Assembly (NCBI GenBank): GCA_964016885.1
Contig: OZ024742.1
Coordinates: forward strand, 205,530,001-205,594,000
From: Eledone cirrhosa
Lineage: Eukaryota
Direction of reading: 5' to 3'
DNA: 64,000 nt
A program made the translations under genes and the position numbers. Shown here one piece after another: positions 1,987-54,692 of the stretch (the stretch's first letter is position 1; each line of letters begins with the position of its first letter). The notes below the pieces were generated by a model. The model did not search any database. It was not told the origin of the DNA and saw only the letters and a program-made list of their open reading frames with translations.

Positions 1987-2178
1987 TGTATCAAGGAAAA
2001 CCGTGATATTGTTGGGGAGAAGTGTGTCCGTAATGATGGTGTACTTGCCCTCACTGATACTGATAAGAAGATAGCTTGGAAGTGTCACTAAATGAGGAGA
2101 ATAAATAGGAAAAAGATAGTCTGCCCCAAATTGATCCAATAGAGGGACCAGTGGTGCAAGTTAATGGTAGTATAATAG
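1987..2178 (+). mobile_element. RTE family A fragment, inverted relative to 1810-1916 across a (TA)n spacer
   Basis: Encodes CIKENRDIVGEKCVRNDGVLALTDTDKKIAWKCH; ORFs 1846+ and 2139- share FGADYLFPIYSPHLV. Confidence 0.85.
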
Positions 2179-2179
2179 A

Positions 2180-2716
2180 CATACTATAAAATTAACTTAC
2201 TCTTCCACCAAAAATTTAGCGCAAAATATTAATAGAATTAATAATAGAAATTTAAAACCTAACCAAAATACCAATAATAACCCAAGCAATATTCAATCGA
2301 ATAAATGTAACTGTAGAAATAAATCCAACTGTCCATTAAATAACAATTGCTTAGCTAAAAATGTAGTTTATAATTGTAATGTAAAAACTAATTTAAATTC
2401 TTTTAATTATGTCGGATCTACCTCCACAGAGTTTAAATCCCGCTTCAATAATCATAAAAATTCTTTTACAGATCCAAACAAAAAATCTTCAACTTCTCTA
2501 TCTAGCCTATTATGGGACCTAAAACGAGAAAATGTTGAATATTCGCTGATTTGGAATATTATTTCAAAAGCTACTCCTTTTAACTCCTCTTCAGAAAATT
2601 GCGATCTTTGTATAGAGGAAATATTCTTTATATTAAAGACCAAAAATTCCCTGAATTTAAGGAATAATTTATTCAGTTGCTGCAGACATAGATTGAACTC
2701 AACGTTTAAATATTAA
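2180..2716 (+). mobile_element. Penelope-like element (Naiad/Chlamys-type) GIY-YIG endonuclease fragment
   Basis: Manual translation, open frame without ATG: HTIKLTYSSTKN..CNCRNKSNCPLNNNCLAKNVVYNC..YVGSTSTEFKSRFNNHKNSF..CDLCIEE..LNLRNNLFSCCRHR..stop 2714-2716. Confidence 0.85.
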
Positions 2717-4153: not shown

Positions 4154-4218
4154 TATTTTGTCTGATGAAAGCATACCATAATTTAACATGGTATCCTTGA
4201 AATATGTATAGTAAAATA
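4154..4218 (+). ncRNA. Degenerate minimal type I hammerhead ribozyme (PLE pLTR family also at 54.7-54.9 kb)
   Basis: tattttgt-CTGATGA-aagcatacca..tggtatcctt-GAAA-tatgta-TA-gtaaaata; downstream flank matches reverse complement of 54590-54690. Confidence 0.7.
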
Positions 4219-4349
4219 GATATGGTTTTATAAATATAGTTTCCATTTGTTAATATCGTATGTTTACTCCAAATACTTGTTCAGTGCTTTATATCAGTTA
4301 TAAAAATATTTGCTTGTTGTATCCCAACAATTTAAATAGAACTTTTGCA

Positions 4350-4644: not shown

Positions 4645-5550
4645 ATATTGTTATACTTTGGGAGGGTCATGTTGCCAATAAGAAACACACGCACCAGTTG
4701 TTTCACTTCAATTTAATTTAATATATATTTATAAATTTACAAATTTATAAATTTCTGGTTGGTTGGTTGGTTCCACAACCAGATAGTTGTTTATATATAT
4801 ATAGTCATAGTTCTTTCGTCACACACTCTGTGACCTCTTCAGTGACTGGGGATTTCTTTCTTCGTTTCTGTGCCTTTCCTTTCTTCTATCCTACGCCATT
4901 TTGTTTGTGTGTGGGTTGCGTGCTCAGTTTGCGCATGCGCCACATCCGGGTGTCTGTGTGTGTTTGTGTTCATTTTTCTATTTTTCTATTTATATTTGTT
5001 TGTTTATTTATTTATTTATTGTTGGTTGGTTGTTTGTTCTATGTGTGTGTGTGTTTTCATTTTGTCTTGTGTGTGTTTTCATTTTGTGTGTGTTTTCAAA
5101 ACACACACAAAATGAAAACACACACAAGACAAAATGAAAACACACACACACATAGAACAAACAACCAACCAACAATAAATAAATAAATAAACAAACAAAT
5201 ATAAATAGAAAAATAGAAAAATGAACACAAACACACACAGACACCCGGATGTGGCGCATGCGCAAACTGAGCACGCAACCCACACACAAACAAAATGGCG
5301 TAGGATAGAAGAAAGGAAAGGCACAGAAACGAAGAAAGAAATCCCCAGTCACTGAAGAGGTCACAGAGTGTGTGACGAAAGAACTATGACTATATATATA
5401 TAAACAACTATCTGGTTGTGGAACCAACCAACCAACCAGAAATTTATAAATTTGTAAATTTATAAATATATATTAAATTAAATTGAAGTGAAAGCAACTG
5501 GTGCGTGTGTTTCTTATTGGCAACATGACCCTCCCAAAGTATAACAATAT
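4645..5550. repeat. ~452-bp-arm near-perfect palindrome, 1-nt spacer at 5097
   Basis: Mirror ORFs 4767-5186(+) and 5008-5427(-); one 1-bp indel seen between arms; arm homologous to 54947-55305. Confidence 0.95.
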
Positions 5551-6697: not shown

Positions 6698-6880
6698 GAG
6701 TAAGTAAGACCCCGACTGCTGAGCTCAGGCCGTTTCGACGGCTAATTCTGTACTGAATGAGTAAGTAAGACCCCGACGGCTGAGCTCAAGCCGTTTCGAC
6801 GGCTAATTCTGTACTGAAATTCAGTACAGAATTAGCCGTCGAAACGGCTTGAGCTCAGCCGTCGGGGTCTTACTTACTCC
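6698..6880. repeat. 60-bp unit: two direct copies plus one inverted copy; contains the 3' half of a hammerhead
   Basis: 6760-6880 is a palindrome; unit reads agccgtc-GAAA-cggct-tgagctc-agccg-TC-ggggtc but lacks CTGANGA. Confidence 0.75.
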
Positions 6881-8847
<1,967 letters not shown>

Positions 8848-11800
8848 TAAACAATTAAGTTAAAAATGTACATCCACATATGTATACTGAAATACTAGTA
8901 TGCATATGAATACACACACGTGTACATATGTAGATGTACCGAGTTTTCACTGGTCACTTTACTGTGAGTGTCCAGCTATTCCGCATGTAGACACACAGAC
9001 AAACCGGTTCTTAGAGTCATACTGGTTTTTGAGGAAACACCTTTCCTCTATTCTCCAGAAAGCCAGACAAGGAATATTGGACTAGTTTCGATGTTGTTAC
9101 ATCTCATCAGCAATATTTACCTATCTTCCGGCTTCTCTAGAGAATCGTGAAAGCACATATCGTTATATGCTTTTTCTATGAAAATTAGTAGTGGGCAGAC
9201 CAATTTGCATAGAGCGTGAGTACGTACCGGTTCAACGGAGACGATAAAAACAAATAACGAAACGAAATTAAATTTCGTTTCGTTTGTAACTCACTTTTGT
9301 ATGACTGACGCTTAAACAATTAAGTTAAAAATGTACATCCACATATGTATACTGAAATACTAGTATGCATATGAATACACACACGTGTACATATGTAGAT
9401 GTACCGAGTTTTCACTGGTCACTTTACTGTGAGTGTCCAGCTATTCCGCATGTAGACACACAGACAAACCGGTTCTTAGAGTCATACTGGTTTTTGAGGA
9501 AACACCTTTCCTCTATTCTCCAGAAAGCCAGACAAGGAATATTGGACTAGTTTCGATGTTGTTACATCTCATCAGCAATATTTACCTATCTTCCGGCTTC
9601 TCTAGAGAATCGTGAAAGCACATATCGTTATATGCTTTTTCTATGAAAATTAGTAGTGGGCAGACCAATTTGCATAGAGCGTGAGTACGTACCGGTTCAA
9701 CGGAGACGATAAAAACAAATAACGAAACGAAATTAAATTTCGTTTCGTTTGTAACTCACTTTTGTATGACTGACGCTTAAACAATTAAGTTAAAAATGTA
9801 CATCCACATATGTATACTGAAATACTAGTATGCATATGAATACACACACGTGTACATATGTAGATGTACCGAGTTTTCACTGGTCACTTTACTGTGAGTG
9901 TCCAGCTATTCCGCATGTAGACACACAGACAAACCGGTTCTTAGAGTCATACTGGTTTTTGAGGAAACACCTTTCCTCTATTCTCCAGAAAGCCAGACAA
10001 GGAATATTGGACTAGTTTCGATGTTGTTACATCTCATCAGCAATATTTACCTATCTTCCGGCTTCTCTAGAGAATCGTGAAAGCACATATCGTTATATGC
10101 TTTTTCTATGAAAATTAGTAGTGGGCAGACCAATTTGCATAGAGCGTGAGTACGTACCGGTTCAACGGAGACGATAAAAACAAATAACGAAACGAAATTA
10201 AATTTCGTTTCGTTTGTAACTCACTTTTGTATGACTGACGCTTAAACAATTAAGTTAAAAATGTACATCCACATATGTATACTGAAATACTAGTATGCAT
10301 ATGAATACACACACGTGTACATATGTAGATGTACCGAGTTTTCACTGGTCACTTTACTGTGAGTGTCCAGCTATTCCGCATGTAGACACACAGACAAACC
10401 GGTTCTTAGAGTCATACTGGTTTTTGAGGAAACACCTTTCCTCTATTCTCCAGAAAGCCAGACAAGGAATATTGGACTAGTTTCGATGTTGTTACATCTC
10501 ATCAGCAATATTTACCTATCTTCCGGCTTCTCTAGAGAATCGTGAAAGCACATATCGTTATATGCTTTTTCTATGAAAATTAGTAGTGGGCAGACCAATT
10601 TGCATAGAGCGTGAGTACGTACCGGTTCAACGGAGACGATAAAAACAAATAACGAAACGAAATTAAATTTCGTTTCGTTTGTAACTCACTTTTGTATGAC
10701 TGACGCTTAAACAATTAAGTTAAAAATGTACATCCACATATGTATACTGAAATACTAGTATGCATATGAATACACACACGTGTACATATGTAGATGTACC
10801 GAGTTTTCACTGGTCACTTTACTGTGAGTGTCCAGCTATTCCGCATGTAGACACACAGACAAACCGGTTCTTAGAGTCATACTGGTTTTTGAGGAAACAC
10901 CTTTCCTCTATTCTCCAGAAAGCCAGACAAGGAATATTGGACTAGTTTCGATGTTGTTACATCTCATCAGCAATATTTACCTATCTTCCGGCTTCTCTAG
11001 AGAATCGTGAAAGCACATATCGTTATATGCTTTTTCTATGAAAATTAGTAGTGGGCAGACCAATTTGCATAGAGCGTGAGTACGTACCGGTTCAACGGAG
11101 ACGATAAAAACAAATAACGAAACGAAATTAAATTTCGTTTCGTTTGTAACTCACTTTTGTATGACTGACGCTTAAACAATTAAGTTAAAAATGTACATCC
11201 ACATATGTATACTGAAATACTAGTATGCATATGAATACACACACGTGTACATATGTAGATGTACCGAGTTTTCACTGGTCACTTTACTGTGAGTGTCCAG
11301 CTATTCCGCATGTAGACACACAGACAAACCGGTTCTTAGAGTCATACTGGTTTTTGAGGAAACACCTTTCCTCTATTCTCCAGAAAGCCAGACAAGGAAT
11401 ATTGGACTAGTTTCGATGTTGTTACATCTCATCAGCAATATTTACCTATCTTCCGGCTTCTCTAGAGAATCGTGAAAGCACATATCGTTATATGCTTTTT
11501 CTATGAAAATTAGTAGTGGGCAGACCAATTTGCATAGAGCGTGAGTACGTACCGGTTCAACGGAGACGATAAAAACAAATAACGAAACGAAATTAAATTT
11601 CGTTTCGTTTGTAACTCACTTTTGTATGACTGACGCTTAAACAATTAAGTTAAAAATGTACATCCACATATGTATACTGAAATACTAGTATGCATATGAA
11701 TACACACACGTGTACATATGTAGATGTACCGAGTTTTCACTGGTCACTTTACTGTGAGTGTCCAGCTATTCCGCATGTAGACACACAGACAAACCGGTTC

Positions 11801-13278
11801 TTAGAGTCATACTGGTTTTTGAGGAAACACCTTTCCTCTATTCTCCAGAAAGCCAGACAAGGAATATTGGACTAGTTTCGATGTTGTTACATCTCATCAG
11901 CAATATTTACCTATCTTCCGGCTTCTCTAGAGAATCGTGAAAGCACATATCGTTATATGCTTTTTCTATGAAAATTAGTAGTGGGCAGACCAATTTGCAT
12001 AGAGCGTGAGTACGTACCGGTTCAACGGAGACGATAAAAACAAATAACGAAACGAAATTAAATTTCGTTTCGTTTGTAACTCACTTTTGTATGACTGACG
12101 CTTAAACAATTAAGTTAAAAATGTACATCCACATATGTATACTGAAATACTAGTATGCATATGAATACACACACGTGTACATATGTAGATGTACCGAGTT
12201 TTCACTGGTCACTTTACTGTGAGTGTCCAGCTATTCCGCATGTAGACACACAGACAAACCGGTTCTTAGAGTCATACTGGTTTTTGAGGAAACACCTTTC
12301 CTCTATTCTCCAGAAAGCCAGACAAGGAATATTGGACTAGTTTCGATGTTGTTACATCTCATCAGCAATATTTACCTATCTTCCGGCTTCTCTAGAGAAT
12401 CGTGAAAGCACATATCGTTATATGCTTTTTCTATGAAAATTAGTAGTGGGCAGACCAATTTGCATAGAGCGTGAGTACGTACCGGTTCAACGGAGACGAT
12501 AAAAACAAATAACGAAACGAAATTAAATTTCGTTTCGTTTGTAACTCACTTTTGTATGACTGACGCTTAAACAATTAAGTTAAAAATGTACATCCACATA
12601 TGTATACTGAAATACTAGTATGCATATGAATACACACACGTGTACATATGTAGATGTACCGAGTTTTCACTGGTCACTTTACTGTGAGTGTCCAGCTATT
12701 CCGCATGTAGACACACAGACAAACCGGTTCTTAGAGTCATACTGGTTTTTGAGGAAACACCTTTCCTCTATTCTCCAGAAAGCCAGACAAGGAATATTGG
12801 ACTAGTTTCGATGTTGTTACATCTCATCAGCAATATTTACCTATCTTCCGGCTTCTCTAGAGAATCGTGAAAGCACATATCGTTATATGCTTTTTCTATG
12901 AAAATTAGTAGTGGGCAGACCAATTTGCATAGAGCGTGAGTACGTACCGGTTCAACGGAGACGATAAAAACAAATAACGAAACGAAATTAAATTTCGTTT
13001 CGTTTGTAACTCACTTTTGTATGACTGACGCTTAAACAATTAAGTTAAAAATGTACATCCACATATGTATACTGAAATACTAGTATGCATATGAATACAC
13101 ACACGTGTACATATGTAGATGTACCGAGTTTTCACTGGTCACTTTACTGTGAGTGTCCAGCTATTCCGCATGTAGACACACAGACAAACCGGTTCTTAGA
13201 GTCATACTGGTTTTTGAGGAAACACCTTTCCTCTATTCTCCAGAAAGCCAGACAAGGAATATTGGACTAGTTTCGATG
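8848..13278 (-). repeat. Left arm of 465-bp hammerhead-containing tandem array (~9.5 units; ribozymes on minus strand)
   Basis: Exact 465-bp period (ORF starts 8900, 9365 ... 13085); reverse-complement HHR at 9073-9117 +465k (9 complete, 1 truncated at junction). Confidence 0.97.
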
Positions 13279-16200
13279 CTTTCACGATTCTCTAGAGAAG
13301 CCGGAAGATAGGTAAATATTGCTGATGAGATGTAACAACATCGAAACTAGTCCAATATTCCTTGTCTGGCTTTCTGGAGAATAGAGGAAAGGTGTTTCCT
13401 CAAAAACCAGTATGACTCTAAGAACCGGTTTGTCTGTGTGTCTACATGCGGAATAGCTGGACACTCACAGTAAAGTGACCAGTGAAAACTCGGTACATCT
13501 ACATATGTACACGTGTGTGTATTCATATGCATACTAGTATTTCAGTATACATATGTGGATGTACATTTTTAACTTAATTGTTTAAGCGTCAGTCATACAA
13601 AAGTGAGTTACAAACGAAACGAAATTTAATTTCGTTTCGTTATTTGTTTTTATCGTCTCCGTTGAACCGGTACGTACTCACGCTCTATGCAAATTGGTCT
13701 GCCCACTACTAATTTTCATAGAAAAAGCATATAACGATATGTGCTTTCACGATTCTCTAGAGAAGCCGGAAGATAGGTAAATATTGCTGATGAGATGTAA
13801 CAACATCGAAACTAGTCCAATATTCCTTGTCTGGCTTTCTGGAGAATAGAGGAAAGGTGTTTCCTCAAAAACCAGTATGACTCTAAGAACCGGTTTGTCT
13901 GTGTGTCTACATGCGGAATAGCTGGACACTCACAGTAAAGTGACCAGTGAAAACTCGGTACATCTACATATGTACACGTGTGTGTATTCATATGCATACT
14001 AGTATTTCAGTATACATATGTGGATGTACATTTTTAACTTAATTGTTTAAGCGTCAGTCATACAAAAGTGAGTTACAAACGAAACGAAATTTAATTTCGT
14101 TTCGTTATTTGTTTTTATCGTCTCCGTTGAACCGGTACGTACTCACGCTCTATGCAAATTGGTCTGCCCACTACTAATTTTCATAGAAAAAGCATATAAC
14201 GATATGTGCTTTCACGATTCTCTAGAGAAGCCGGAAGATAGGTAAATATTGCTGATGAGATGTAACAACATCGAAACTAGTCCAATATTCCTTGTCTGGC
14301 TTTCTGGAGAATAGAGGAAAGGTGTTTCCTCAAAAACCAGTATGACTCTAAGAACCGGTTTGTCTGTGTGTCTACATGCGGAATAGCTGGACACTCACAG
14401 TAAAGTGACCAGTGAAAACTCGGTACATCTACATATGTACACGTGTGTGTATTCATATGCATACTAGTATTTCAGTATACATATGTGGATGTACATTTTT
14501 AACTTAATTGTTTAAGCGTCAGTCATACAAAAGTGAGTTACAAACGAAACGAAATTTAATTTCGTTTCGTTATTTGTTTTTATCGTCTCCGTTGAACCGG
14601 TACGTACTCACGCTCTATGCAAATTGGTCTGCCCACTACTAATTTTCATAGAAAAAGCATATAACGATATGTGCTTTCACGATTCTCTAGAGAAGCCGGA
14701 AGATAGGTAAATATTGCTGATGAGATGTAACAACATCGAAACTAGTCCAATATTCCTTGTCTGGCTTTCTGGAGAATAGAGGAAAGGTGTTTCCTCAAAA
14801 ACCAGTATGACTCTAAGAACCGGTTTGTCTGTGTGTCTACATGCGGAATAGCTGGACACTCACAGTAAAGTGACCAGTGAAAACTCGGTACATCTACATA
14901 TGTACACGTGTGTGTATTCATATGCATACTAGTATTTCAGTATACATATGTGGATGTACATTTTTAACTTAATTGTTTAAGCGTCAGTCATACAAAAGTG
15001 AGTTACAAACGAAACGAAATTTAATTTCGTTTCGTTATTTGTTTTTATCGTCTCCGTTGAACCGGTACGTACTCACGCTCTATGCAAATTGGTCTGCCCA
15101 CTACTAATTTTCATAGAAAAAGCATATAACGATATGTGCTTTCACGATTCTCTAGAGAAGCCGGAAGATAGGTAAATATTGCTGATGAGATGTAACAACA
15201 TCGAAACTAGTCCAATATTCCTTGTCTGGCTTTCTGGAGAATAGAGGAAAGGTGTTTCCTCAAAAACCAGTATGACTCTAAGAACCGGTTTGTCTGTGTG
15301 TCTACATGCGGAATAGCTGGACACTCACAGTAAAGTGACCAGTGAAAACTCGGTACACCTACATATGTACACGTGTGTGTATTCATATGCATACTAGTAT
15401 TTCAGTATACATATGTGGATGTACATTTTTAACTTAATTGTTTAAGCGTCAGTCATACAAAAGTGAGTTACAAACGAAACGAAATTTAATTTCGTTTCGT
15501 TATTTGTTTTTATCGTCTCCGTTGAACCGGTACGTACTCACGCTCTATGCAAATTGGTCTGCCCACTACTAATTTTCATAGAAAAAGCATATAACGATAT
15601 GTGCTTTCACGATTCTCTAGAGAAGCCGGAAGATAGGTAAATATTGCTGATGAGATGTAACAACATCGAAACTAGTCCAATATTCCTTGTCTGGCTTTCT
15701 GGAGAATAGAGGAAAGGTGTTTCCTCAAAAACCAGTATGACTCTAAGAACCGGTTTGTCTGTGTGTCTACATGCGGAATAGCTGGACACTCACAGTAAAG
15801 TGACCAGTGAAAACTCGGTACATCTACATATGTACACGTGTGTGTATTCATATGCATACTAGTATTTCAGTATACATATGTGGATGTACATTTTTAACTT
15901 AATTGTTTAAGCGTCAGTCATACAAAAGTGAGTTACAAACGAAACGAAATTTAATTTCGTTTCGTTATTTGTTTTTATCGTCTCCGTTGAACCGGTACGT
16001 ACTCACGCTCTATGCAAATTGGTCTGCCCACTACTAATTTTCATAGAAAAAGCATATAACGATATGTGCTTTCACGATTCTCTAGAGAAGCCGGAAGATA
16101 GGTAAATATTGCTGATGAGATGTAACAACATCGAAACTAGTCCAATATTCCTTGTCTGGCTTTCTGGAGAATAGAGGAAAGGTGTTTCCTCAAAAACCAG

Positions 16201-18303
16201 TATGACTCTAAGAACCGGTTTGTCTGTGTGTCTACATGCGGAATAGCTGGACACTCACAGTAAAGTGACCAGTGAAAACTCGGTACATCTACATATGTAC
16301 ACGTGTGTGTATTCATATGCATACTAGTATTTCAGTATACATATGTGGATGTACATTTTTAACTTAATTGTTTAAGCGTCAGTCATACAAAAGTGAGTTA
16401 CAAACGAAACGAAATTTAATTTCGTTTCGTTATTTGTTTTTATCGTCTCCGTTGAACCGGTACGTACTCACGCTCTATGCAAATTGGTCTGCCCACTACT
16501 AATTTTCATAGAAAAAGCATATAACGATATGTGCTTTCACGATTCTCTAGAGAAGCCGGAAGATAGGTAAATATTGCTGATGAGATGTAACAACATCGAA
16601 ACTAGTCCAATATTCCTTGTCTGGCTTTCTGGAGAATAGAGGAAAGGTGTTTCCTCAAAAACCAGTATGACTCTAAGAACCGGTTTGTCTGTGTGTCTAC
16701 ATGCGGAATAGCTGGACACTCACAGTAAAGTGACCAGTGAAAACTCGGTACATCTACATATGTACACGTGTGTGTATTCATATGCATACTAGTATTTCAG
16801 TATACATATGTGGATGTACATTTTTAACTTAATTGTTTAAGCGTCAGTCATACAAAAGTGAGTTACAAACGAAACGAAATTTAATTTCGTTTCGTTATTT
16901 GTTTTTATCGTCTCCGTTGAACCGGTACGTACTCACGCTCTATGCAAATTGGTCTGCCCACTACTAATTTTCATAGAAAAAGCATATAACGATATGTGCT
17001 TTCACGATTCTCTAGAGAAGCCGGAAGATAGGTAAATATTGCTGATGAGATGTAACAACATCGAAACTAGTCCAATATTCCTTGTCTGGCTTTCTGGAGA
17101 ATAGAGGAAAGGTGTTTCCTCAAAAACCAGTATGACTCTAAGAACCGGTTTGTCTGTGTGTCTACATGCGGAATAGCTGGACACTCACAGTAAAGTGACC
17201 AGTGAAAACTCGGTACATCTACATATGTACACGTGTGTGTATTCATATGCATACTAGTATTTCAGTATACATATGTGGATGTACATTTTTAACTTAATTG
17301 TTTAAGCGTCAGTCATACAAAAGTGAGTTACAAACGAAACGAAATTTAATTTCGTTTCGTTATTTGTTTTTATCGTCTCCGTTGAACCGGTACGTACTCA
17401 CGCTCTATGCAAATTGGTCTGCCCACTACTAATTTTCATAGAAAAAGCATATAACGATATGTGCTTTCACGATTCTCTAGAGAAGCCGGAAGATAGGTAA
17501 ATATTGCTGATGAGATGTAACAACATCGAAACTAGTCCAATATTCCTTGTCTGGCTTTCTGGAGAATAGAGGAAAGGTGTTTCCTCAAAAACCAGTATGA
17601 CTCTAAGAACCGGTTTGTCTGTGTGTCTACATGCGGAATAGCTGGACACTCACAGTAAAGTGACCAGTGAAAACTCGGTACATCTACATATGTACACGTG
17701 TGTGTATTCATATGCATACTAGTATTTCAGTATACATATGTGGATGTACATTTTTAACTTAATTGTTTAAGCGTCAGTCATACAAAAGTGAGTTACAAAC
17801 GAAACGAAATTTAATTTCGTTTCGTTATTTGTTTTTATCGTCTCCGTTGAACCGGTACGTACTCACGCTCTATGCAAATTGGTCTGCCCACTACTAATTT
17901 TCATAGAAAAAGCATATAACGATATGTGCTTTCACGATTCTCTAGAGAAGCCGGAAGATAGGTAAATATTGCTGATGAGATGTAACAACATCGAAACTAG
18001 TCCAATATTCCTTGTCTGGCTTTCTGGAGAATAGAGGAAAGGTGTTTCCTCAAAAACCAGTATGACTCTAAGAACCGGTTTGTCTGTGTGTCTACATGCG
18101 GAATAGCTGGACACTCACAGTAAAGTGACCAGTGAAAACTCGGTACATCTACATATGTACACGTGTGTGTATTCATATGCATACTAGTATTTCAGTATAC
18201 ATATGTGGATGTACATTTTTAACTTAATTGTTTAAGCGTCAGTCATACAAAAGTGAGTTACAAACGAAACGAAATTTAATTTCGTTTCGTTATTTGTTTT
18301 TAT
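13279..18303 (+). repeat. Right arm of 465-bp hammerhead-containing tandem array (~10.8 units; ribozymes on plus strand)
   Basis: Reverse complement of left arm; HHR at 13315-13359 +465k up to 17965 (11 copies); only one variant base noticed (15358). Confidence 0.97.
13315..13359 (+). ncRNA. Minimal type I hammerhead ribozyme (representative of 20 complete copies)
   Basis: Helix I aatattg/caatatt; core CTGATGA (13322-28); helix II gatgt-aaca-acatc; GAAA (13343-46); palindromic helix III ACTAGT; GUC site, predicted cut after 13352. Confidence 0.92.
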
Positions 18304-18870
<567 letters not shown>

Positions 18871-19569: not shown

Positions 19570-20082
19570 ATATACGTTTACTTAATGGTATCAGTTTTAG
19601 GAAATGATATTTGTAAGAAGGAAAGCCAAATTATGTAGTTCATCATTAGTAGAATATTAATTATAGGTTAACTAAAATAAAAATAGTTTATATATTAATT
19701 TCTAAGGTGTATATTAATTAGGTTTATAATATTTAAACCAGAATTATGTAGTTCATCAGTAGTAGAATATTAATTATAGGTTAACTAAATTAAAAATAAT
19801 TACATATGTTTACTTAATGGTATCAGTTTTAGGAAATGATGTTTGTAAGAAGGAAAGCCAAATTATGTACTTCATCAGTAGTAGAATATTAATTATAGGT
19901 TAACTAAATTAAAAATAGTTTATATATTAATTTCTAAAGTGTATATTAATTAGGTTTTTAATATTTAAAGCAGAATTTTGTAATTCATCTGTAGTAGAAT
20001 ATTAATTATAGGTTAACTAAATTAAAATTAATTCATATATTAATTTCTAAAGTGTATATTAATTAGGTTTATAATATTTAAA
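19570..20082. repeat. Imperfect ~110/230-bp tandem repeats at the 3' end of a Naiad-type fragment
   Basis: gtagaatattaattataggttaactaaa recurs four times at ~110-120-bp spacing. Confidence 0.85.
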
Positions 20083-20630
20083 TGTTTTTCTCAGATTATG
20101 ATTACACGATATTATTAATTCCTGTCGCTTATTTAATAGGATATCTTTAGATTTCATTATTTCAAAAAGTTCTTGGGAACACAATCTACATTCATTTCTA
20201 CTATTTTGATAAGGGGTGGCCCTTTTGAGCACACTCCAGGTCAGGTCATATTCTATATTCCTCTTTCTATAACTATTAATTTTTTCAGCTAGAGATGTTG
20301 TATTAGCTAATGCGGCATTTTTAAAACTATGTTTGTGGGTATTAAATCTTACCTTAAAATTGTTAGAGGTAGCTCCTATATATGAATAAATAGAGTCCTT
20401 AGTGTTAACTTTACATTTATATATTATGTTATTAACAAGGCAATTTCCTTTTAATGGACAGTTTGGCTTGTTTCTACAGTTACAACTTTTCGTGAATCCT
20501 GTATCTGAGGAGATATTATGGTTAGTTTGATGTACTGGTGGTATACTTATGGTTTTTTTTTACATTTATATGCATTATAGGCACTTATATTTTGTTTTAT
20601 GTTTCTGGTTGTTGAGTAGGAGAAATTAAC
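20059..20630 (-). mobile_element. Penelope-like (Naiad/Chlamys-type) GIY-YIG endonuclease fragment
   Basis: Manual translation 20490->20059: KSCNCRNKPNCPLKGNCLVNNIIYKCKV..YIGATSNNFKVRFNTHKHSF..CRLCSQE..LLNKRQELIISCNH; upstream VNFSYSTTRNIK. Confidence 0.88.
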
Positions 20631-21935: not shown

Positions 21936-22189
21936 AACAACCCATCATCCCTCCCACCCGCCCCCATGCACCACCATTATTACGTGGACCAATCATAAGT
22001 CAGAGGCCCATACTATCGCTTAACTAGTTGCTTTTCGATATGATGGATGGACTACGGAATTCTGGAGAGTTGAAGAGAGAAAAATGTGGACGCTCAGCGA
22101 CAAATTCACCTCGTGGACGAGAATGCAAGCACTCCTCCTTGTTTCGGCCCAGGATGGCTAACATAACCCCCCCCCCCCCGCTCCCACCC

Positions 22190-25100
22190 TCTAAACGCAA
22201 TCCAAAACTTCAGAGTTGGTACCATGAATGTAGGCACCTTAAAGGGTCGCTCTAACGAGGTTGTAGAAATGCTTGAACGTAAGGAGGTCGATGTTTGTTG
22301 TATTCAAGAGACCAGGTGGAGGGGAGGGTCGGCTAGATTCATCGTGGGTAAAGAACGATGCTATAAGCTTTTCTGGGTGGGAAATGACAATGGGTTGGGT
22401 GGGGTAGGAATCATGGTAGCAGAAAAGTGGGCAGATAAGATAATAGACGTAAATAGAGTGAACGACAGAATAATTAAAATAAGACTTGTCCTCAATAAAA
22501 CTATGGTGACAGTAATATCTGCGTACGCACCCCAATCCGGACTGCCCGGCGCTATAAAAGACAGATTCTACGAGACACTGATGCTCGCTACCTCCCAAAT
22601 AACCGACAGTGACTATATAGTTATTGCAGGCGACCTAAATGGTCACGGACAACATTGTCACGGCTATGACGGAATCCATGGAGGCTATGGGTTCGGTACT
22701 AGAAATGAGGAAGGCTCCAGAATCCTGGAATTCTGCGACGCAAATAACTTAACTATCTGTAACACTAACTTCAAAAAATTAGACAATCACTTGATCACCT
22801 ACAAGCCAGGTAGATTATATCCTTACCAGAAGACGTGACAGAGTGTCTGTTGTTAACACTAAATCCCTCCCCCATGAAGAATTCACCTCCCAACATAGAC
22901 TGATAATTAGCGACCTCATAGTCAGGACGAGACGTACTAGACAGCGGAAGAGGACTATCCTCAGGAGAAAAATATGGAAGCTAAAGGACCCCATAGCCAG
23001 AAATGAATTTCAAAGCATATTACTTGACGCTTTCGACAGTAAGGAAGAGCAATTAGAGTCGTATAATATAGAGGAACAGTGGGAATTCCTGAGAGCAAAC
23101 CTGCTGACGGCGGCAGACGAAGTCTGTGGCTGGAGCAGGCCTGTAGGTGGGAGGAGAGTAACATGGTGGTGGAACAGTAAGGTGGAGGAGTCAATTAAGG
23201 GCAAAAAGCAGGCTTGGAAAGTATGGCGGGATGGGGGAAGTAGAGAAGACTATCAAGTGGCCAGGAGGGAAGCTAGGAGACAAGTGTACTTCGCAAGAAG
23301 GGAAGCAGAGGAAAGAAAGTTCAAGCATGTTCTACAACGTGAGGACCAAAAACGTGAGGTGTTCAGGATTGCCAGGCAATGTGTCAAGGAAAACCGTGAT
23401 ATTGTCGGGGAGAAGTGTGTACTTAACGATGATGGCATACTTGCCATCACCGACGCTGATAAGAAGGTAGCTTGGAAGTGTCACTACGAAAGGCTTCTAA
23501 ATGAGGAGAACAAATGGGAGAAAGACAGTCTCCCCCACATCAACCCAATAGAGGGACCAGCAGTGTTAGTCCAGGGTAGTACAATAAGCAAGGCAATCAA
23601 AGATATGAAGACGGGTAAGGCGGCTGGTCCTTCGGAAATAGTTGCTGAGATGCTGAAGGCATCTGGTTCGGTGGGACACACCATGGTCACCAGGATAGTT
23701 AACCAAGTCGTACAGAATGGGGTTGTTCCGAAGGACTGGCGTAGCAGCATCATCGTTAACTGCTATAAGGGAAAAGGAGATGCCCTAGATAGGAGTAACT
23801 ATAGAGGCATTAAATTAATCGACCAGGTCATGAAGGTCACGGAAAAAGTAATAGCGCAACTAATCAGAGAGAGAATTGATCTAGATGAAAAGCAGTTCGG
23901 GTTTGTGTCAGGCAAAAGTACCACAGACGCTCTTTTCATTGTACGACAACTACAGGAGAAGTACCTAGCTAAAAGTAAACCCCTATACTTAGCTTTCGTC
24001 AACTTGGAGAAAGCCTTCGACAGAGTCCCCCGTTCCATTATCTGGTGGACTCTTAGAAAACTAGGTGTTGACGAATGGCTTCTGAGAGCTATACAAGCCA
24101 TGTATAAAGAAACAGTCAGTAAGGTTAGAATTAACAACGAATATAGTGAAGAGTTTAGCGTAAAAGTTGGTGTCCATCAGGGCTCTGTTCTTAGCCCCCT
24201 ACTATTTATTATTGCCCTTCAGGCTATAACAGAGGAGTTCAAGACCGGCTGCCCATGGGAACTCCTATACGCAGATGATCTAAGGCTCATAGCTGAATCA
24301 ATGACCGAACTAGAGAAGAAATTCCAAACATGGAAGCACGGCCTAGAATCAAAAGGCCTTAAAATTAACCTGGCTAAGACTAAAGTTCTAGTTTGTAGGA
24401 AAGAAAATAAGGCGGCGGTCCCATCTGGGAAATGGCCATGCTCAGTGTGTAGGAAAGGCGTAGGTAGAAACTCCATTTTATGTCCCAAATGCAAAGTATG
24501 GGTGCATAAAAGATGTAGTGGGATCACAGGTAAGCTAACTAAGAACATAGATTTTACATGTGGCCGGTGCTCTGGTGCAATAAGTAGCAGCAAGTGCACA
24601 CAAAATACTAGCTCCTTCAACTGCGCAGAGGGTTCTATAGAAACAGTGGACAGCTTCCGTTACCTGGGTGACAAAATCAGCAGTGGGGGAGGGTGCTCTG
24701 AAAGTACAGTAGCTAGAGTCAGAACTGGATGGAAAAAGTTCAGAGAGCTTATACCACTATTAGCCGCTAGAGGGTTCTCCCTAAAAATGAAAGGCAGGTT
24801 ATACGATGACTGCATACGAACAGCAATGCTGCATGGCAGTGAGACCTGGGCATTGTGTGCAGAGGATATACGCAGACTAGAGAGGAACGAAGCTTGCATG
24901 CTCCGCTGGATGTGCAATAGTAATATACGTGAACGGCAAAGCATAAACGAACTAAGGAAAAAATTAGAAATAAGAGGGATCAGATGTTGTTTACTCGAGA
25001 GAAGGCTACGTTGGTACGGTCACGTGATGCGCATGAAAGACGACAGCTGTATAACAAAGTGCAGGGCAATAAAGATAGACGGTAGCCACGGAGTAGGCAG

Positions 25101-25800
25101 ACCCAGAAAAACATGGGACGAGCTGATAAATTCCGACCTCACACGCTTACACCTCTCCAAGACAATGTCACTGGACCGAGACCTTTGGCGGTACTCAGTA
25201 ATAGAGAAGACCCGCCTTACCTAAATACAAAGTAAAAACCTACTACAGTCAGTAGGCATCTCTATCAAAACACACCCCCGTCCCACCACCTCCACCCCAT
25301 CCACACCGCCCCTTTCAATGTAAAGTTATGTTGGTCCCACAACATCCAGGCCAAAACAATTGAGATCGTGTAGGTGTCACGATAAAAAAACACACAGTCC
25401 AAAAGTTATGTTGGTCCCACAACATCCAGGCCGAAACAAATGAGATCGTGTAGGTGTCACGACAAAAAAACACACAGTCCACGCTGTAAATGTGGCCGTG
25501 TAGGCAACACGGAAAAAACCTCCCAGCCCCACACTGTAAATGTGGTTGGTGTTAGGAAGGGCATCCAGCTGTAGAAAACCCGCCAGACAGTCCACGCTGT
25601 AATGTGGCCGTGTAGGCAACACGGTAAAAACCTCCCAGCCCCACACTGTAAATGTGGTTGGTGTTAGGAAGGGGATCCAACTGTAGAAAACCCGCCAGAC
25701 AGTCCTATGCGAGCAAGACAACCACTCTTGCCTCAAGTGGGAAAACCCCGTCCAAACCCATGCAAGCGTGGAACACGGACGCTAAACATGATGATGATGA
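22190..25800 (+). mobile_element. Near full-length RTE-clade LINE (family A): APE + RT + embedded PHD-like finger, long 3' UTR, (GAT)n tail
   Basis: ORFs 22224-22838 and 22843-25224; tail gatgatgatgat at ~25790-25800. Confidence 0.95.
22224..25224 (+). pseudogene. RTE APE-RT polyprotein broken by one frameshifting 17-bp deletion near 22805
   Basis: APE motifs MNVGTL, CIQETR, ISAYAPQ, AGDLN; RT motifs NYRGIKL, QFGF, KAFD, GVHQGSVLSP, YADD, FRYLG; deletion evident versus 32281-32312. Confidence 0.92.
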
Positions 25801-32113: not shown

Positions 32114-34441
32114 TAAATGGCCACGTTGGACAACATTGTGACGGCTATGACGGAATCCACGGAGGCTATGGGTTTGGTACTAGAAACGAGGAAGGCTCCA
32201 GAATCCTGGAATTCTGTGATGCAAATAACCTAACTATCTGTAACACTAACTTCAAAAAACGAGACAATCACTTGATCACCTACAGATCAGGGGACCATAC
32301 CAGCCAAGTAGATTATATCTTTACCAGAAGACGTGACAGAGTGTCTGTTGTAAACAATAAATCCCTCCCCCATGAAGAATGCACCTCCCAACATACTCAT
32401 AGTTAGTGACCTCATAGTCAGGACGAGACGTACTTGACAGCAGAAGAGGATTATCCTCAGGAGAAAAATATGGAAGCTAAAGGACCCCACAGCCAGAAAT
32501 AAATTTCAAAGCATATTACTTGATGCTTTCGACAGTAAGGAAGAGCAATTAGAGTCGTACAATGTAGAGGAACAGTGGGAATTCCTGAAAGCAAACCTGC
32601 TGATGGCGGCAGACGAAGTCTGTGGCTGGAGCAGGCCTGTAGGCAGGAGGAGAGTAACATGGTGGTGGAACAGTAAGGTGGAGGGGTCAATCAAGGCCAA
32701 AAAGCAGGCTTGGAAAGTATGGCGGGATGGGGGAAGTAGAGAAGACTATCAAGTGGCCAGGAGGGAAGCTAGGAGACAAGTGTACTTCGCAAGAAGGGAA
32801 GCAGAGGAAAGAAAGTTCAAGCATGTTCTACAACGCGAGGACCAAAAACGTGAGGTGTTCAGGATTGCTAGGCAATGTGTCAAGGAAAACTGTGATATTG
32901 TTGGGGAGAAGTGTGTACTTAACGATGATGGCGTACTTGCCATCACTGACCCTGATAAGAAGGTAGCTTGGAAGTGTCACTACGAAAGGCTACTAAATGA
33001 GGAGAATAAATGGGAGAAAGACAGTCTCCCCCACATCGACCCAATAGAGGGACCAGCAGTGTTAGTCGAAGGTAGTAAAATAAGTAAGGCAATCAAAGAT
33101 ATGAAGACAGGTAAGGCGGCTGGGCCTTCGGAAATAGTTGCTGAGATGCTGAAAGCCTCTGGAACGGTGGGACACACCATGGTCACCCGGATAGTAAACC
33201 AAGTCATACAGAATGGGGTTGTTCCGAAGGACTGGCGTAGCAGCATCATCGTTAACTGTTACAAGGGTAAAGGAGACGCCCTAGATAGGAGTAACTATAG
33301 AGGCATTAACTTAATCGACCAGGTCATGAAGGTCACGGAAAAAGTAATAGCGCAACTAATCAGAGAGAGAATTGATCTAGATGAAATGCAGTTCGGGTTT
33401 GTGTCAGGCAAAAGTACCACAGACGCTCTTTTCATTGTACGACAACTACAGGAGAAGTACCTAGCTAAAAGTAAACCCCTATACTTAGCTTTTGTCGACT
33501 TGGAGAAAGCCTTCGACAGAGTCCCCCGTTCCATTATCTGGTGGGCTCTTAGAAAACTAGGTGTTGACGAATGGCTTGTGAGAGCTATACAAGCCATGTA
33601 TAAAGAAACAGTCAGCAAGGTTAGAATTAACAGTCAGAACTGGATGGAAAAAGTTCAGACAGCTTATACCACTATTAGTCGCTAAAGGGTTCTCCCTAAA
33701 AATGAAAGGCAGGTTGTATGATGCCTGCATACGAACAGCAATGTTGCATGGCAGTGAGACCTGGGCATTGTGTGCAGAGGATATACGCAGACTAGAGAGG
33801 AACGAAGCTTGCATGCTCCGCTGGATGTGTAATAGTAATATACGTGAACGGCAAAGCATAAACGAACTAAGGAAAAAATTAGAAATAAGAGGGATCAGGT
33901 GTTGTTTACTTGAGAGAAGGCTACATTGGTATGGTCACGTGATGCGCATGAAAGACGACAGCTGTATAACAAAGTGCAGGGCAATAAAGATAGACGGTAG
34001 CCACGGAGTAGGCAGACCCAGAAAAACCTGGGACGAGCTGATAAATTCCGACCTCACACACTTACACCTCTCCAAGACAATGTCACTGGACCGAGACCTT
34101 TGGCGGTACTCAGTAATAGAGAGGACCCGCCTTACCTAAATACAAAGTAAAACCTACTACAGTCAGTAGACATCTCTAACAAAATAGACCCCCGTCCCAC
34201 CCCATCCACACCGCCCCTTTCAATGTAAAGTTATGTTGGTGCCACAACATCCAGGCCGAAACAAATGAGATCGTGTAGGTGTCACGACAAAAAAACACAC
34301 AGTCCACGCTGTAATGTGGCCGTGTAGAAAACCCGCCAGACAGTCCTATGCGAGCAATGACAACCACTCTTGCCTCAAGTGGGAAAACTCCCGTCCAAAC
34401 CCATGCAAGCGTGGAACATGGACGTTAAACGATGATGATGA
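32114..34441 (+). mobile_element. RTE family A copy, 5'-truncated, with ~580-bp internal deletion at ~33632 removing YADD and the finger
   Basis: ORFs 32603-33685 and 33702-34139; junction ttagaattaac|agtcagaactgg. Confidence 0.93.
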
Positions 34442-38194: not shown

Positions 38195-40040
38195 AGATAA
38201 ATGTGTCCGGAATGATGCCGGTGTACTTAGTGTCATGAATGAGCAGAAAAAGGAGGCCTGAAAATGTCATTATGAGAGACAGATGAATGTGGAGAATGAA
38301 TGGGAGAGAGAGAAATTACACTCAGTAGATCCAACAGAGGGACCAGCTACTGAGATTGACGAATATAGGGTCCAAGAGGCGATTTAGGAAATGGAAAATC
38401 GTAAGGCTGCTGGACAGTCAGGGATAGTTGCTGAGATGCTGAAGGAGCCAGGGGACGTAGGCACTAAACTGGTTACACGCATCATCAATCAGGCTATATA
38501 TGGTGGTGTCATACCCAAAGACTGGTACAGCAGTATTCTCATAAATTGCTACAAAGGTAAAGGGGATGCTCTGGAGAGGAGCAATTATAGGGGTATAAAA
38601 CCAATGGATCAGGTTATGAAAGTGGCAGAAAGGATATTAGCACAACTAATTAGAGAAAGGGTCAAACTAGATGAGATGCAGTTTGGTTTTGTGCCTGGGA
38701 AAAGTACAACAGATGCCCTCTTCTTGGTGAGACAATTACAAGAGAGGTTCTTGGAGAAGAATAAGCCACTATACTTAGCCTTTGTTGACCTAGAGAAGGC
38801 CTTTGATAGGGTACCCCGATCTGTCATCTGGTGGTCCCTAAGGAAACTAGGCGTTGAGGAATGGCTTGTGAAGACAGTGCAAACGTTGTACAGAGGTGCT
38901 GTCAGTAAAGTCAGGGTAGGAATGGAGTTTAGTGAGGAATTCCAGAGACAAGTAGGAGTACATCAAGGTTTGGTCCTCAGCCCGCTCTTGTTCATTATAG
39001 TCCTCCAAGCCATAACAGAGGAGTTTAAGACTGGCTGTCCATGGGATCTTCTCTATGCTGACGATCTGGTTCTTATAGCAGAATCAGTAGAGGAGCTAGA
39101 GATTAAATTCTGGCTATGGAAACAGCAGTTGGAAGCAAGAGGACTGAGAGTGAACCTAGCTAAGACAAAAGTGTTGATGAATAGAAAAGAGGACAAAACT
39201 CTGATCCCGTCAGGGAAATGGCCATGTTCGATATGCAGAAAAGGAACTGGCATACATTCTATAAAATGCACACAATGCAGATCCTGGGTACACAAGAGAT
39301 GTAGTGGGATAGCAGGCAAACTAACAAGTAGGGAGAAATATGTATGCAGTAGATGTACAGGGAAATTAGACAGTAGAAGTCGCATTGATAGACACATTTT
39401 TCAAATGCAGGTGTTATAGAAGTGGATAGCTTCCGGTACCTAGGAGATCAAATTAGCATGAGGGGGGGGGGGGGTTCCGAGGCCATAGTATCTAGAATAA
39501 GGATGGGTTGGAAGAAGTTTAGGGAGCTGCTTCCTCTGCTGACGAAGAAGCGTTTCTCCCTGCGTACGAAAGGCTGGTTATATGATGCTTGTGCGAGGAG
39601 CGCGATGCTGCATGGTAGTGAGACATGGGCAGCAACTGCAGAGGATATGCGACGGCTGGAGAGAAATGAAGCAAGCATGCTCCGTTGGATGTGCAATGTC
39701 AATGTGCATGAACGACCCAGCATGAATGTGTTGAGAGAGAAACTGTGTCTGAGAAGGATAGAGTGTAGTGTGCGAGAGAGGAGACTGAGGTGGTATGTAC
39801 ATGTGATGCGCATGGGGGATGACCGATGGGTGAAGAAGTGCCAGCAAATGCCAGTTGAAGGAAGACCTGGTAGAGGTAGACCACGAAAAACATGGGCGGA
39901 GTTGGTGAGAACAGACCTCAGATCACTGAAGCTCACGGTGGAGATGACGAAGGACCGTGACAAGTGGAGAGATGCTGTGCTAAATAAGACCCGTCCCACC
40001 CTTGCAAGCAGGGAAAAGCGGACGTAAAATATGATGATGA
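38195..40040 (+). mobile_element. RTE family B, 5'-truncated; ORF runs almost into the (GAT)n tail
   Basis: ORFs 38391-39419 (YADD, Cys/His finger) and 39422-40027; tail at ~40031-40040. Confidence 0.93.
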
Positions 40041-48134: not shown

Positions 48135-49990
48135 AGGACAAAAAGAAATCCACCACCACCTCATTCACCGCGGTTTCCGCCTCAAGTTTCACCCCACCTC
48201 TTACTCTGCTACCACCACTGAGCCCATCCTTACTCGCTCCTCTCACCAGCTCATGTGGGCAATCATTCGATCAACTTTCGCCCAAATCTGTTCTCTTGAC
48301 AGAGATCTCCCCAAAGCCTACCTCCATCTCTCCTCCACTTGCCACCCTTTCCTCGCCCAATCCCTTATCCAATTCATCCTTTACTTCAATCGCCTTCTTA
48401 AAAAAAAATCATAAACTCGACTCTCCGCCTGCCATCACCACCCATACTCATATCACCTCCAACCCAAACCCCTCTATCCTATCACCTACCACTGAATCTG
48501 CACACGCTTTGCCCTACCACCTTGACCCCTCTGCCTCTTTCATTCCATCACGTCCCTGCACTGTAGTCACCATACCCCAGGACCTACCACTCTCTGAAGC
48601 TGAGCGCTCCCTCCACGCCCGTGGTTTGCGTTTTATACCAACCGCATCTACCTACGACGAGTTCCACACACGTGCTGAGATTGAAGGGTTCTTCCGTCGA
48701 TTAAAGCTGAAAGCTTTTTTTCACGACACGCCATCATCAACACAGATGGATGATTTTACTCATCTCAATTGCCAGCAATCACATTGGACGCCGAGCTCTG
48801 GCCAGTTCAGCACCCTCGACTCCTTTGTCGATACTTGTCGGCTTACTGTGAATCGGTTCCATTTCCACCAGCATTCTCGTTGTTCTAACATCACGCGAAC
48901 TGAGCTCTTCGCAACCTTCAGTGCCGCGATGACATTGTCATCAAACCCGCCGACAAAGGTGGTGCTGTGGTGGTTTGGAGTGCTGACCTCTATAGGGCTG
49001 AGGCTCTCCGCCAGCTTCACAATACCCTTTTTTTACCGCCCTTTATCCTCCGAACCCACTCCTGGCTACCAATAACTCGTGTCCTTCACCATCCATGAGC
49101 TCATCTCCTCCTCTCACCTACCCCCCACAGCCAACAACCTTATTGTACACGCCCCTCGCACACCCACCATCTACTTCCTCCCCAAAATACACAAACAAAA
49201 TAATCCTGGCCATCCTATCGTTTCTGCGTGCAACTGGACAAACAGGACACCATATGGTGGACCATTTTGCCGAACATTTGAGGGACATTAGACTCGGTTT
49301 AGATACTCCTGTCACCCGTTATTTCTGCTCTCCTGGTCATTCTTCCCTACATATTTCAGTCCTGGGTGTCCTTTTGCATCATGGATCACAGGCCTTGCGC
49401 ACCAGGCCTGAACAAAGTCTGATTCACCGCCTTGTGCCCTATTCCCCTCTTGGACTCAACTCACCTCCCTAATTTCTCTAATACCCCATCCATTATCACA
49501 CCCCTAGATTCCTATTGGTTTCTCTTGATCATTAGCAACTTTTCTTACAGCTAATACATGCCGATACACACCCTTATATTTACATACTTTTGCTCATAGC
49601 TTCGTACTTACATGTACACACACTCTTTTACTCACATATACACACACATTTCTTCTTAGCTTCGTATGGATCTATAACACACACACAAACATGATTACGC
49701 ACGTACTCAAGTATAGCGCTTTTTACAAAACAGTTTTTTTCCATTCATCATCCATTTTTCTAAAAAACAAATCATACTCAAAACGCCAGCACCAACAGTT
49801 TCGCAAGAGATGTCAACATGAATGGACCTGTTATTTTTATCTAAAGACATTTTTTCCAATTCCATCCCCTCAATCTATTTTATTTCTCATTCTTTCTTCT
49901 GATGAAGGACTAGCGTCCGAAACGTTAAGACCCTCTTCCTGCTATATCAAACGTTAACCTAATATATACCTTCCATATACTGTACCGACC
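48135..49990 (+). mobile_element. Internally deleted Penelope-like element (Neptune-type) with 3' hammerhead
   Basis: LSEAERSL..RGLRFIPT, FFRRLKLKAFF, frameshifted IKPADKGGAVVV, YFLPKIHK..PGHPIVS; GIY-YIG tail TGQTG..FAEH..EQSLIHRL..PLGLN; most of RT deleted at ~49232. Confidence 0.88.
49895..49930 (+). ncRNA. Minimal PLE-type hammerhead ribozyme
   Basis: tctt-CTGATGA-a-ggac-tagc-gtcc-GAA-ACGT-T-aaga. Confidence 0.85.
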
Positions 49991-50046
49991 GTGTTGGTGG
50001 GAGGGGGGAGTAGGGGAGGGGGGAGGGGGTGTATATTGGTTAAGAG

Positions 50047-54303: not shown

Positions 54304-54692
54304 CAATGTGGTACATCTACATCAAACCATAATTGGTGAAAGAAAGGCTGTTTGCTATATGAGAGGGAGAGAGCAGCTGCAACAGTAGGCGAAAGTGACA
54401 GCAGCAGTAGTGGCAAAAATGAAGGGAGGCAATGGCAGGAGATACAAAGATAGAGTCTGTGTGCTATTTGAACGGGAACAGCAGCAGCAGCAGGCGGAAG
54501 TAATAGTGGTAAAAATAAAAACAAAAGGAGGCGAAAATGGGAGAAACAAAGATATATATAATATATATATGTAGAAGTTGTATTTAATTTGTTGGAAGTC
54601 CGACAAACATAAATGTTTATAACTGATTTAGAGCACTCAACAGTTTACTGGAGTAAATATTCCATGATATTAAATCAATGGAAACTATATTT

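What the first reader, a model, noticed from the sequence alone, without database searches (positions are those of the whole stretch)
8848..18303. ~20-mer concatemer of a 465-bp hammerhead-ribozyme unit: young retrozyme-like / circRNA-derived element
Seen: exact 465-bp period, ~20.3 units, only one variant base noticed (15358), no credible ORF, and one intact-core type I hammerhead per unit (20 complete copies, GUC site). Known: metazoan non-LTR retrozymes and newt/schistosome satellites are tandem non-coding units with type I hammerheads that self-cleave to monomers which can circularise. Inference: a multimeric transcript would yield 465-nt monomers/circles, and the extreme homogeneity fits a single recent rolling-circle reverse-transcription event rather than slow satellite expansion. 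I cannot tell whether this family has been described.
Basis: partly seen in the sequence, partly recalled or inferred. Interest (0 to 1): 0.93.

Follow-up and report, generated by a model that had tools for sequence, protein, structure and literature searches.

The report
Two-armed hammerhead retrozyme insertion
This 9.5-kb stretch is two back-to-back runs of about ten identical 465-base units, each unit carrying a predicted self-cutting RNA motif, and is one of over 2,000 such insertions in this animal genome; its fixed ends and a base change found in every copy here and nowhere else suggest that a Penelope-type enzyme likely copied one small RNA circle repeatedly from both sides of a DNA break.

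Summary
Period (465), total length (20.3 units), the single variant (15358) and 20 intact type I hammerheads are confirmed, but this is not one concatemer. It is a 9.5-unit minus-strand arm (8848-13278) and a 10.8-unit plus-strand arm (13277-18303) facing apart inside (TA)n. The family is large: 9,276 hammerhead cores and 2,058 insertion ends of one type. In 79 of 85 fully seen two-arm insertions, one arm ends at unit position ~301 and the other at ~227-232, the inverted-copy-plus-tail footprint described for Penelope-like elements. Both arms carry one haplotype; one A>G change sits in 21 of 21 copies here and nowhere else in the assembly. Best reading (0.6): both cut DNA ends primed reverse transcription on one RNA circle and went round about ten times each. 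An uncut linear multimer (0.25) or expansion after insertion (0.1) is not excluded. No RNA, cleavage or partner element was shown; an RNA-editing bias was not established. It is a non-LTR retrozyme whose two-armed insertion pattern I did not find in the retrozyme papers read. This scan noted the same layout before, in other families of this genome and in another genome.

The parts
6881..8847 (.). Left (TA)n target tract with TAAA interruptions
8848..13278 (-). Left arm, 9.53 units, no variant; runs from unit position 452 (inner end) to 232 (outer end, 'B' site, against TA). Unit position 1 = window 13353, the base after the predicted cut
13277..13278 (.). Head-to-head junction of the two arms with a 2-nt TG microhomology
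13277..18303 (+). Right arm, 10.81 units, one variant (15358); runs from unit position 390 (inner end) to 301 (outer end, 'A' site, against TA)
13304..13375 (+). First plus-strand type I hammerhead: extended stem I, 5-bp stem II, 2-bp stem III on a palindromic ACUAGU, GUC with predicted cut after 13352; repeated every 465 bp (11 on +, 9 on -)
13353..13817 (+). One monomer from cut site to cut site (predicted 465-nt linear or circular RNA)
13448..13448 (+). Unit position 96, G in all 21 copies of both arms; this variant occurs nowhere else in the assembly, and sister loci have A
18263..18291 (+). 13-bp hairpin lying just before the A end in every unit (last copy given); pairing kept across the family
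18304..18848 (.). Right (TA)n tract; 18314-18410 repeats 8615-8711 exactly (97 bp, direct), a possible imperfect long target-site duplication

Best explanation
The array is one recent insertion of a non-coding hammerhead retroelement (non-LTR retrozyme), likely made when a Penelope-like enzyme acting in trans cut both strands of a (TA)n tract and primed reverse transcription from both ends on what was probably one circular 465-nt RNA. Shown: two divergent arms; outer ends at two fixed unit positions about 70 nt apart; inner ends scattered; one haplotype in both arms; TA targets. Inferred: transcripts of tandem copies self-cleave (probably as ribozyme pairs, given the 2-bp palindromic stem III) and are ligated to circles; one DNA end primes at position 301 and the other at 227-232; each enzyme goes round about ten times; the two cDNAs are joined at their far ends by microhomology repair.
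For: Fixed ends: 79 of 85 two-arm insertions with both outer ends in view have one A end (295-303) and one B end (220-236), none has two A ends (one of the two ends was the selection criterion). 2,058 exact A-end+TA junctions genome-wide, control 0. Contigs of run X1 leave the unit into TA behind the same positions 227, 232, 301. An inverted 5'-truncated copy, a one-sided tail and microsatellite targets are described PLE marks (PMC8557442, passages); a purified PLE protein cuts and extends both strands at AT-rich DNA, starts at two internal RNA sites and is predicted to be a dimer (PMC11167929, parts 1-2 of 4). One template: in 66 of 72 two-arm loci the partner arm is among the closest tenth of all arms (median 0.6% against 4.7%); one arm-fixed difference in 30 testable loci; 96G in 21 of 21 copies and at no other place. 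Inner ends lie near the B site more often than chance (22 of 89, p 0.002; 16 of 54 for arms of a unit or more), as if both enzymes shared a molecule. Uncut template: inner ends are about uniform over the unit (n 176, KS p 0.15); 15 of 411 passes stop at the ribozyme cut. Born long: length does not track internal divergence; L218 has 19.9 units and no internal variant. Ribozyme under constraint: core unchanged in all but one called base among 127 locus haplotypes, one stem II pair swapped A-U/U-A (70/55). Short palindromic stem III is described as allowing cleavage in multimers and sparing monomeric circles (PMC4209133, passages).
Against: No RNA evidence of any kind was obtained. No autonomous partner sharing sequence with the unit was found in 1.8 Mb of fetched sequence. 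The tail is about 70 nt, not the 30-40 bp described for PLEs. For the purified PLE, ribozyme cleavage was not needed and unprocessed RNA was the main substrate, and 8 of 9 Xenopus retrozyme dimers did not cleave in vitro (bioRxiv 10.64898/2026.07.22.740005). Older long arrays carry variants shared at regular unit spacings (L184, L157, L196, L176, L235), so duplication after insertion happens. Stops at the cut site are slightly above chance (15 against 8.4, p 0.03), so some templates may be cut linear RNA. The assembly is one haplotype set, so a source locus with 96G could be missing from it; a second haplotype that looked private in my sample proved to be a 7-locus subfamily.
Confidence: 0.6

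Rival explanations
1. Same Penelope-type double priming, but on a long linear, uncut multimeric transcript read from an existing array.
For: Unprocessed RNA was the dominant substrate for the purified PLE (PMC11167929). Long source arrays exist in this subfamily (single arms of 18.0 and 16.9 units), and young subfamilies have longer arrays (mean 6.9 units in 14 loci, against 3.6 overall). The excess of inner ends near the B site also fits one continuous linear template.
Against: It needs at least 11 consecutive intact ribozymes to stay uncut, all with 96G, and no such source is in the assembly. Classical twin priming on one linear RNA predicts that the first arm stops where the second starts; 57 of 79 unbiased loci do not lie within 30 nt by the count's parent set (20 of 79 do).
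Confidence: 0.25
2. A short two-arm insertion that expanded afterwards by unequal exchange or slippage, as satellite DNA does (the local-amplification model of Li et al. 2026).
For: Block duplications are plain in older arrays, e.g. an 8-unit higher-order repeat in L184 and many shared variants in the 31-unit L235. The family median is only 2.1 units and 9 of 134 insertions reach 10.
Against: Both arms would have to grow about tenfold before more than one substitution arose in 9.4 kb. Length does not rise with internal divergence (rho 0.03, n 99). Young long arrays show almost only single-unit variants (window 1 and 0 shared; L218 0 and 0; L047 1 and 0).
Confidence: 0.1
3. The second arm is a fold-back copy of the first cDNA or of the inserted DNA, not a second priming on RNA.
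For: It would explain the shared haplotype, and short templated inserts occur at some junctions (L031, L033, L044).
Against: Both outer ends are fixed sites on the RNA 3' side; the A arm is the longer in 41 of 79 loci and arm lengths are uncorrelated; the variant at 15358 is not mirrored in the left arm.
Confidence: 0.03
4. An assembly or library artefact (fold-back read, collapsed repeat).
For: Perfect palindromes and homogeneous tandems are known assembly hazards (own knowledge); L035 looked noisy.
Against: The arms differ in phase, length and flank; the same two ends recur at many loci with locus-specific haplotypes and in an independent run's contigs. Unit counts may still be off by a few.
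Confidence: 0.02

Closest known systems
Metazoan non-LTR retrozymes (Cervera and de la Pena 2020, PMC7229834; passages and parts 3-4 of 6 read, supplement unreadable; Li, Clavereau and Pollet 2026, bioRxiv 10.64898/2026.07.22.740005, parts 1 and 3 of 5 and passages read)
   Same: Non-coding tandem unit with one type I hammerhead per unit, GC under 45% (37%), no LTR-type ends, thousands of copies, stable fold, long target duplications where visible; mobilisation by PLE enzymes from a circle is proposed there.
   Different: Unit of 465 nt is above the ~170-400 nt given for invertebrates. The text read describes no divergent two-arm insertions, fixed priming sites or TA targeting ('inverted', 'opposite' 0 hits in PMC7229834; 'tail' 0 and 'inverted' only in a reference title in the preprint). 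Circles and cleavage were shown there, not here.
Penelope-like elements with GIY-YIG endonuclease (Craig et al. 2021, PMC8557442, passages; Frangieh et al. 2024, PMC11167929, parts 1-2 of 4)
   Same: Inverted 5'-truncated copy, tail at one end, two internal start sites, microsatellite targets, hammerhead in the repeat.
   Different: No ORF; arms are multi-unit runs of a cut-to-cut monomer; tail about 70 nt; no sequence link to a coding PLE found.
Non-autonomous Chlamys elements such as MRC1 (PMC8557442, one passage)
   Same: Protein-less PLE passengers that often form multicopy head-to-tail insertions.
   Different: That clade is described as lacking canonical hammerheads, and its passengers resemble their autonomous partners at the 3' end.
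L1 twin priming (PMC2837659, search listing and start of abstract only; model otherwise recalled)
   Same: Two primers, one insertion, inverted arm, microhomology junction.
   Different: There the second primer anneals where the first cDNA stops; here both start sites are fixed and only about a quarter of loci show that continuity.

Membership tests
Non-LTR retrozyme | Tandem units, each with a type I hammerhead | tested here: met
   20 complete motifs in 20.3 units; HH9 model E 2e-8 but below gathering score
Non-LTR retrozyme | Non-coding, low GC, no LTR structure | tested here: met
   Longest open frame 64 codons; GC 0.37; ends abut TA directly. PBS and PPT were not searched for separately
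Non-LTR retrozyme | Dispersed multicopy family | tested here: met
   9,276 exact cores; 2,058 A ends
Non-LTR retrozyme | Highly self-paired monomer | tested here: met
   z -9.4; circular fold -151 kcal/mol, 66% paired; prediction only
Non-LTR retrozyme | Self-cleavage of the RNA | not testable with these tools
   Only conservation and one compensatory pair
Non-LTR retrozyme | Accumulation as circular RNA | not testable with these tools
   No run on record as RNA was available
Non-LTR retrozyme | Target-site duplication longer than 4 bp when present | tested here: inconclusive
   Clear 53-bp case at L154; 75 and 101 bp candidates; 97-bp offset match here. Over 145 loci direct matches (17) beat other-locus controls (2) but not reverse-complement controls (13)
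PLE-mobilised element | Inverted 5'-truncated copy next to the sense copy | tested here: met
   88 of 134 insertions; 8 of 42 single-arm calls show a short inverted stub
PLE-mobilised element | Tail at one end from two start sites | tested here: met
   79 of 85; length about 70 nt rather than 30-40
PLE-mobilised element | Sequence shared with the pseudo-LTR of an autonomous PLE | tested here: inconclusive
   None found in two families and 1.8 Mb of flanks; most PLE-like families of the genome were not examined
Autonomous PLE | ORF with RT and GIY-YIG endonuclease | tested here: not met
   No ORF in the unit; none of 30 A ends joined to non-unit element sequence within 1.5 kb by unit mapping

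The most novel reading that the evidence does not exclude
These arrays are genomic records of double target-primed rolling-circle reverse transcription: two Penelope-type enzymes, primed from the two ends of one DNA break, ran round the same single RNA circle about ten times each, so that a change made in that one RNA molecule (here A>G at position 96, possibly an A-to-I edit) was written into all 21 copies at once.
Probability: 0.5. Interest if true: 0.8.

Novelty: new variant of a known kind. Interest (0 to 1): 0.6.

Why it matters
The retrozyme papers read propose that PLE enzymes copy ribozyme circles into tandem DNA but give no insertion-site evidence, and a 2026 preprint instead invokes local amplification after insertion. 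Here the PLE footprint is on the retrozyme insertions themselves, with two start sites fixed to a few bases, a defined 465-nt template and a defined target. That turns the proposed route into a direct experiment and offers a natural account of the inverted repeats and tails of PLEs, which are described as unexplained. It also means satellite-like arrays of several kilobases may arise in one step.

Tried and rejected
RNA-editing bias: not established. Among variants seen in one locus only and in all its copies, A>G is 12 of 40 against 6 T>C (p 0.16); half come from one locus (L150, six clustered A>G), and without it the count is 6 against 6. Single-unit variants are strand-symmetric (G>A 69, C>T 66, T>C 56, A>G 47 of 478). 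L218's A>G cluster is shared by 7 places, 71 units, so private in my sample does not mean private in the genome; only 96G was tested genome-wide and held. Expression: no RNA holder listed. Cross-species spread: 20 of 24 listed runs from 16 studies and 17 organism labels hold part of the unit, but raw Hi-C reads of organism F (1.9 Gb, X23) gave 0 reads while its run X9 holds the unit (no control that the organism is in X23), so carry-over of a high-copy repeat is the simpler reading and I make no transfer claim. Closed 495/496-nt contigs in X4 and X5 fit a tandem as well as a circle. Partner search: the young family with frames up to 749 codons near window 2171-2716 (no Pfam hit; Atlas neighbours carry GIY-YIG in 26-50% of members; the PLE label also rests on recalled motifs) and the family at 49221-49469 share nothing convincing with the unit. 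Other CTGATGAG sites at 34588 and 57226 are not hammerheads of this kind. Rows dropped from counts: L035 (noisy), L142 (twin of L141), L268 (overlaps L196); early divergence values for L144, L150, L168 were inflated by misaligned edges and were redone with trimming. Literature searches for the two-armed pattern in retrozymes; none listed such a paper, but subscription journals, Dfam and Repbase were not searchable, and the supplement of PMC7229834 (its Figure S9 model) could not be read.
Full report
What is in the window. Tandem Repeats Finder splits the region into two 465-bp arrays, 8848-13278 and 13277-18303, and they are reverse complements. Against one unit the left arm has no difference and the right arm one, at 15358. 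The arms face apart and meet over a TG microhomology. Both outer ends run straight into (TA)n. Numbering the unit from the base after the predicted cut (window 13353), the left arm spans positions 452 to 232 and the right arm 390 to 301; neither end lies at the cut. The window is G000:C3:205530001-205594000 in a 3.0-Gb assembly.

The ribozyme. Each unit has a type I hammerhead with a 7-bp stem I that extends past an internal loop, a 5-bp stem II and a 2-bp stem III on a palindrome. No Rfam family reaches its gathering score; the best match is Hammerhead_HH9 at E 2e-8. Across 127 locus haplotypes the core positions differ in one called base, one stem II pair is A-U in 70 and U-A in 55, and the cut base is C in 62 and U in 65. 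PMC4209133 (passages) describes this short palindromic stem III as working in ribozyme pairs, cutting multimers and sparing monomeric circles. Cleavage itself is untested.

The family. An exact core pattern has 9,276 hits and the junction 'position 301 + TA' 2,058, with 0 for the reversed control. I mapped 19 near-identical loci plus the window from the BLAST search (that search scored 24 of 540 candidates and favours long arrays) and 134 insertions from the first 141 Mb of C1, picked by either end motif. Of the 134, 88 are divergent two-arm insertions, 44 show one orientation and 2 are more complex. Of 85 two-arm insertions with both outer ends in view, 79 have one end at 295-303 and one at 220-236, 2 have two ends of the second kind, 4 have another end and none has two of the first kind. 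One end was selected for; the other is the test. The second site clusters at 227 (38) and 232 (63) of 118. Contigs of run X1 leave the unit into TA at 227, 232 and 301 too.

Why Penelope. Craig et al. (PMC8557442, passages) list an inverted 5'-truncated copy, a 30-40 bp tail at one end and microsatellite targets as PLE marks. Frangieh et al. (PMC11167929, parts 1-2 of 4) show a purified PLE protein cutting and extending both strands at AT-rich DNA and starting at two internal RNA sites that bound the tail. The family studied here has the same geometry with a tail of about 70 nt. PLE-like coding families are abundant in the genome, one with near-identical copies and frames up to 749 codons, but I found none that shares sequence with the unit. 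The enzyme is therefore inferred from the footprint.

One template, uncut. In 66 of 72 two-arm loci the partner arm is among the closest tenth of all arms; arms differ by a median 0.6% within a locus and 4.7% between loci. Only one position was fixed differently between arms in 30 testable loci. In this array, position 96 is G in 21 of 21 copies of both arms, and a 23-base pattern over it hits those 21 places and nothing else in the assembly, while sister loci have A. Inner ends are about uniform along the unit (n 176, p 0.15); 15 of 411 passes stop at the cut site against 8.4 expected (p 0.03), so the template is mostly read through the cut. The first arm stops near the second start site in 22 of 89 loci (p 0.002), which points to a shared molecule but is far from the rule. 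A circle explains all this without further assumptions. A linear multimer needs 11 or more uncut ribozymes and a 96G source that the assembly lacks; one assembly cannot exclude such a source, and the PLE study found unprocessed RNA to be the main substrate.

Born long or grown. The family median is 2.1 units and 9 of 134 reach 10, so this array is in the long tail. Length does not track internal divergence (rho 0.03, n 99), and arrays below 0.15% divergence run from 1.1 to 19.9 units. Young long arrays have almost no shared variants, while older ones do, including an 8-unit higher-order repeat in L184 and heavy sharing in L235. Duplication after insertion is real but too slow, on this evidence, to make both arms here. 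The window's subfamily has 312 units, with 1 to 21 per locus in the 14 loci fully listed.

Editing and spread. I looked for an A>G bias on the RNA strand. Locus L150 carries a cluster of A>G changes repeated in each unit, and position 96 turns a predicted U-A pair into U-G, but the family-wide bias vanishes without L150 (6 against 6) and one apparent private cluster is a small subfamily. Editing stays a hint. Hits in runs of many organism labels are best read as carry-over.

Comparison and verdict. All genomic features of a non-LTR retrozyme are met; cleavage and circles could not be tested. Cervera and de la Pena (PMC7229834, parts 3-4 of 6) propose that PLE enzymes copy the circles into tandem cDNA; Li et al. 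(preprint, parts 1 and 3 of 5) favour local amplification and call the mechanism unresolved. Neither text as read describes two-armed insertions or fixed start sites, and searches listed no such paper; passages of PMC7761336 and PMC13282606 added nothing on this. Earlier notes of this scan report the same layout for 310-, 422- and 467-bp families here and a 490-bp family in another genome; they are unchecked and are not used as support. Verdict: a new variant of a known kind, interest 0.6; the value lies in making the proposed circle-plus-PLE route directly testable.

Noticed in passing
L074:2098-2450 (-); L194:4978-10000: Sister hammerhead repeat families, 65-70% like the unit, with units of about 430 and 480 bp; 3,514 candidates for the first. 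L194 has the same divergent layout (3.0 + 7.4 or more units) and ends after a matching hairpin.
   Followed up: partly
window 4650-5546: Short perfect-looking palindromic insertion between two (TA)n tracts; the same element lies at about 54950-55500. Another likely two-arm passenger.
   Followed up: no
window 4155-4220 and 54690-54930: Hammerhead-like motifs with a long stem II, the latter as a divergent pair.
   Followed up: no
window 6698-6880: Two direct 61-bp copies plus an inverted copy ending at the left TA tract of the array; resembles a PLE end by recall.
   Followed up: no
window 2171-2716, 20059-20559, 49002-49472: Fragments of PLE-like endonuclease regions; the first belongs to a young family with frames up to 749 codons and divergent pairs.
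   Followed up: partly
window 22167-25224, 32438-34139, 38388-40027, 49958-51418: Copies of a LINE-type reverse transcriptase ORF; the first has RVT_1 and PHD hits.
   Followed up: no
L040-L041 (C50), unit position 344; L145, position 111: One variant in 3 of 19 and 4 of 20 non-adjacent units with no linked changes; could be misreading of a modified base on repeated passes, conversion or duplication.
   Followed up: partly
L150: Cluster of A>G changes at unit positions 313-431, the same in each unit, like a hyper-edited monomer copied several times.
   Followed up: partly
L141 and L142 (C1:55.97 and 55.99 Mb): The same insertion twice, 17.7 kb apart: segmental duplication or assembly duplicate.
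   Followed up: no
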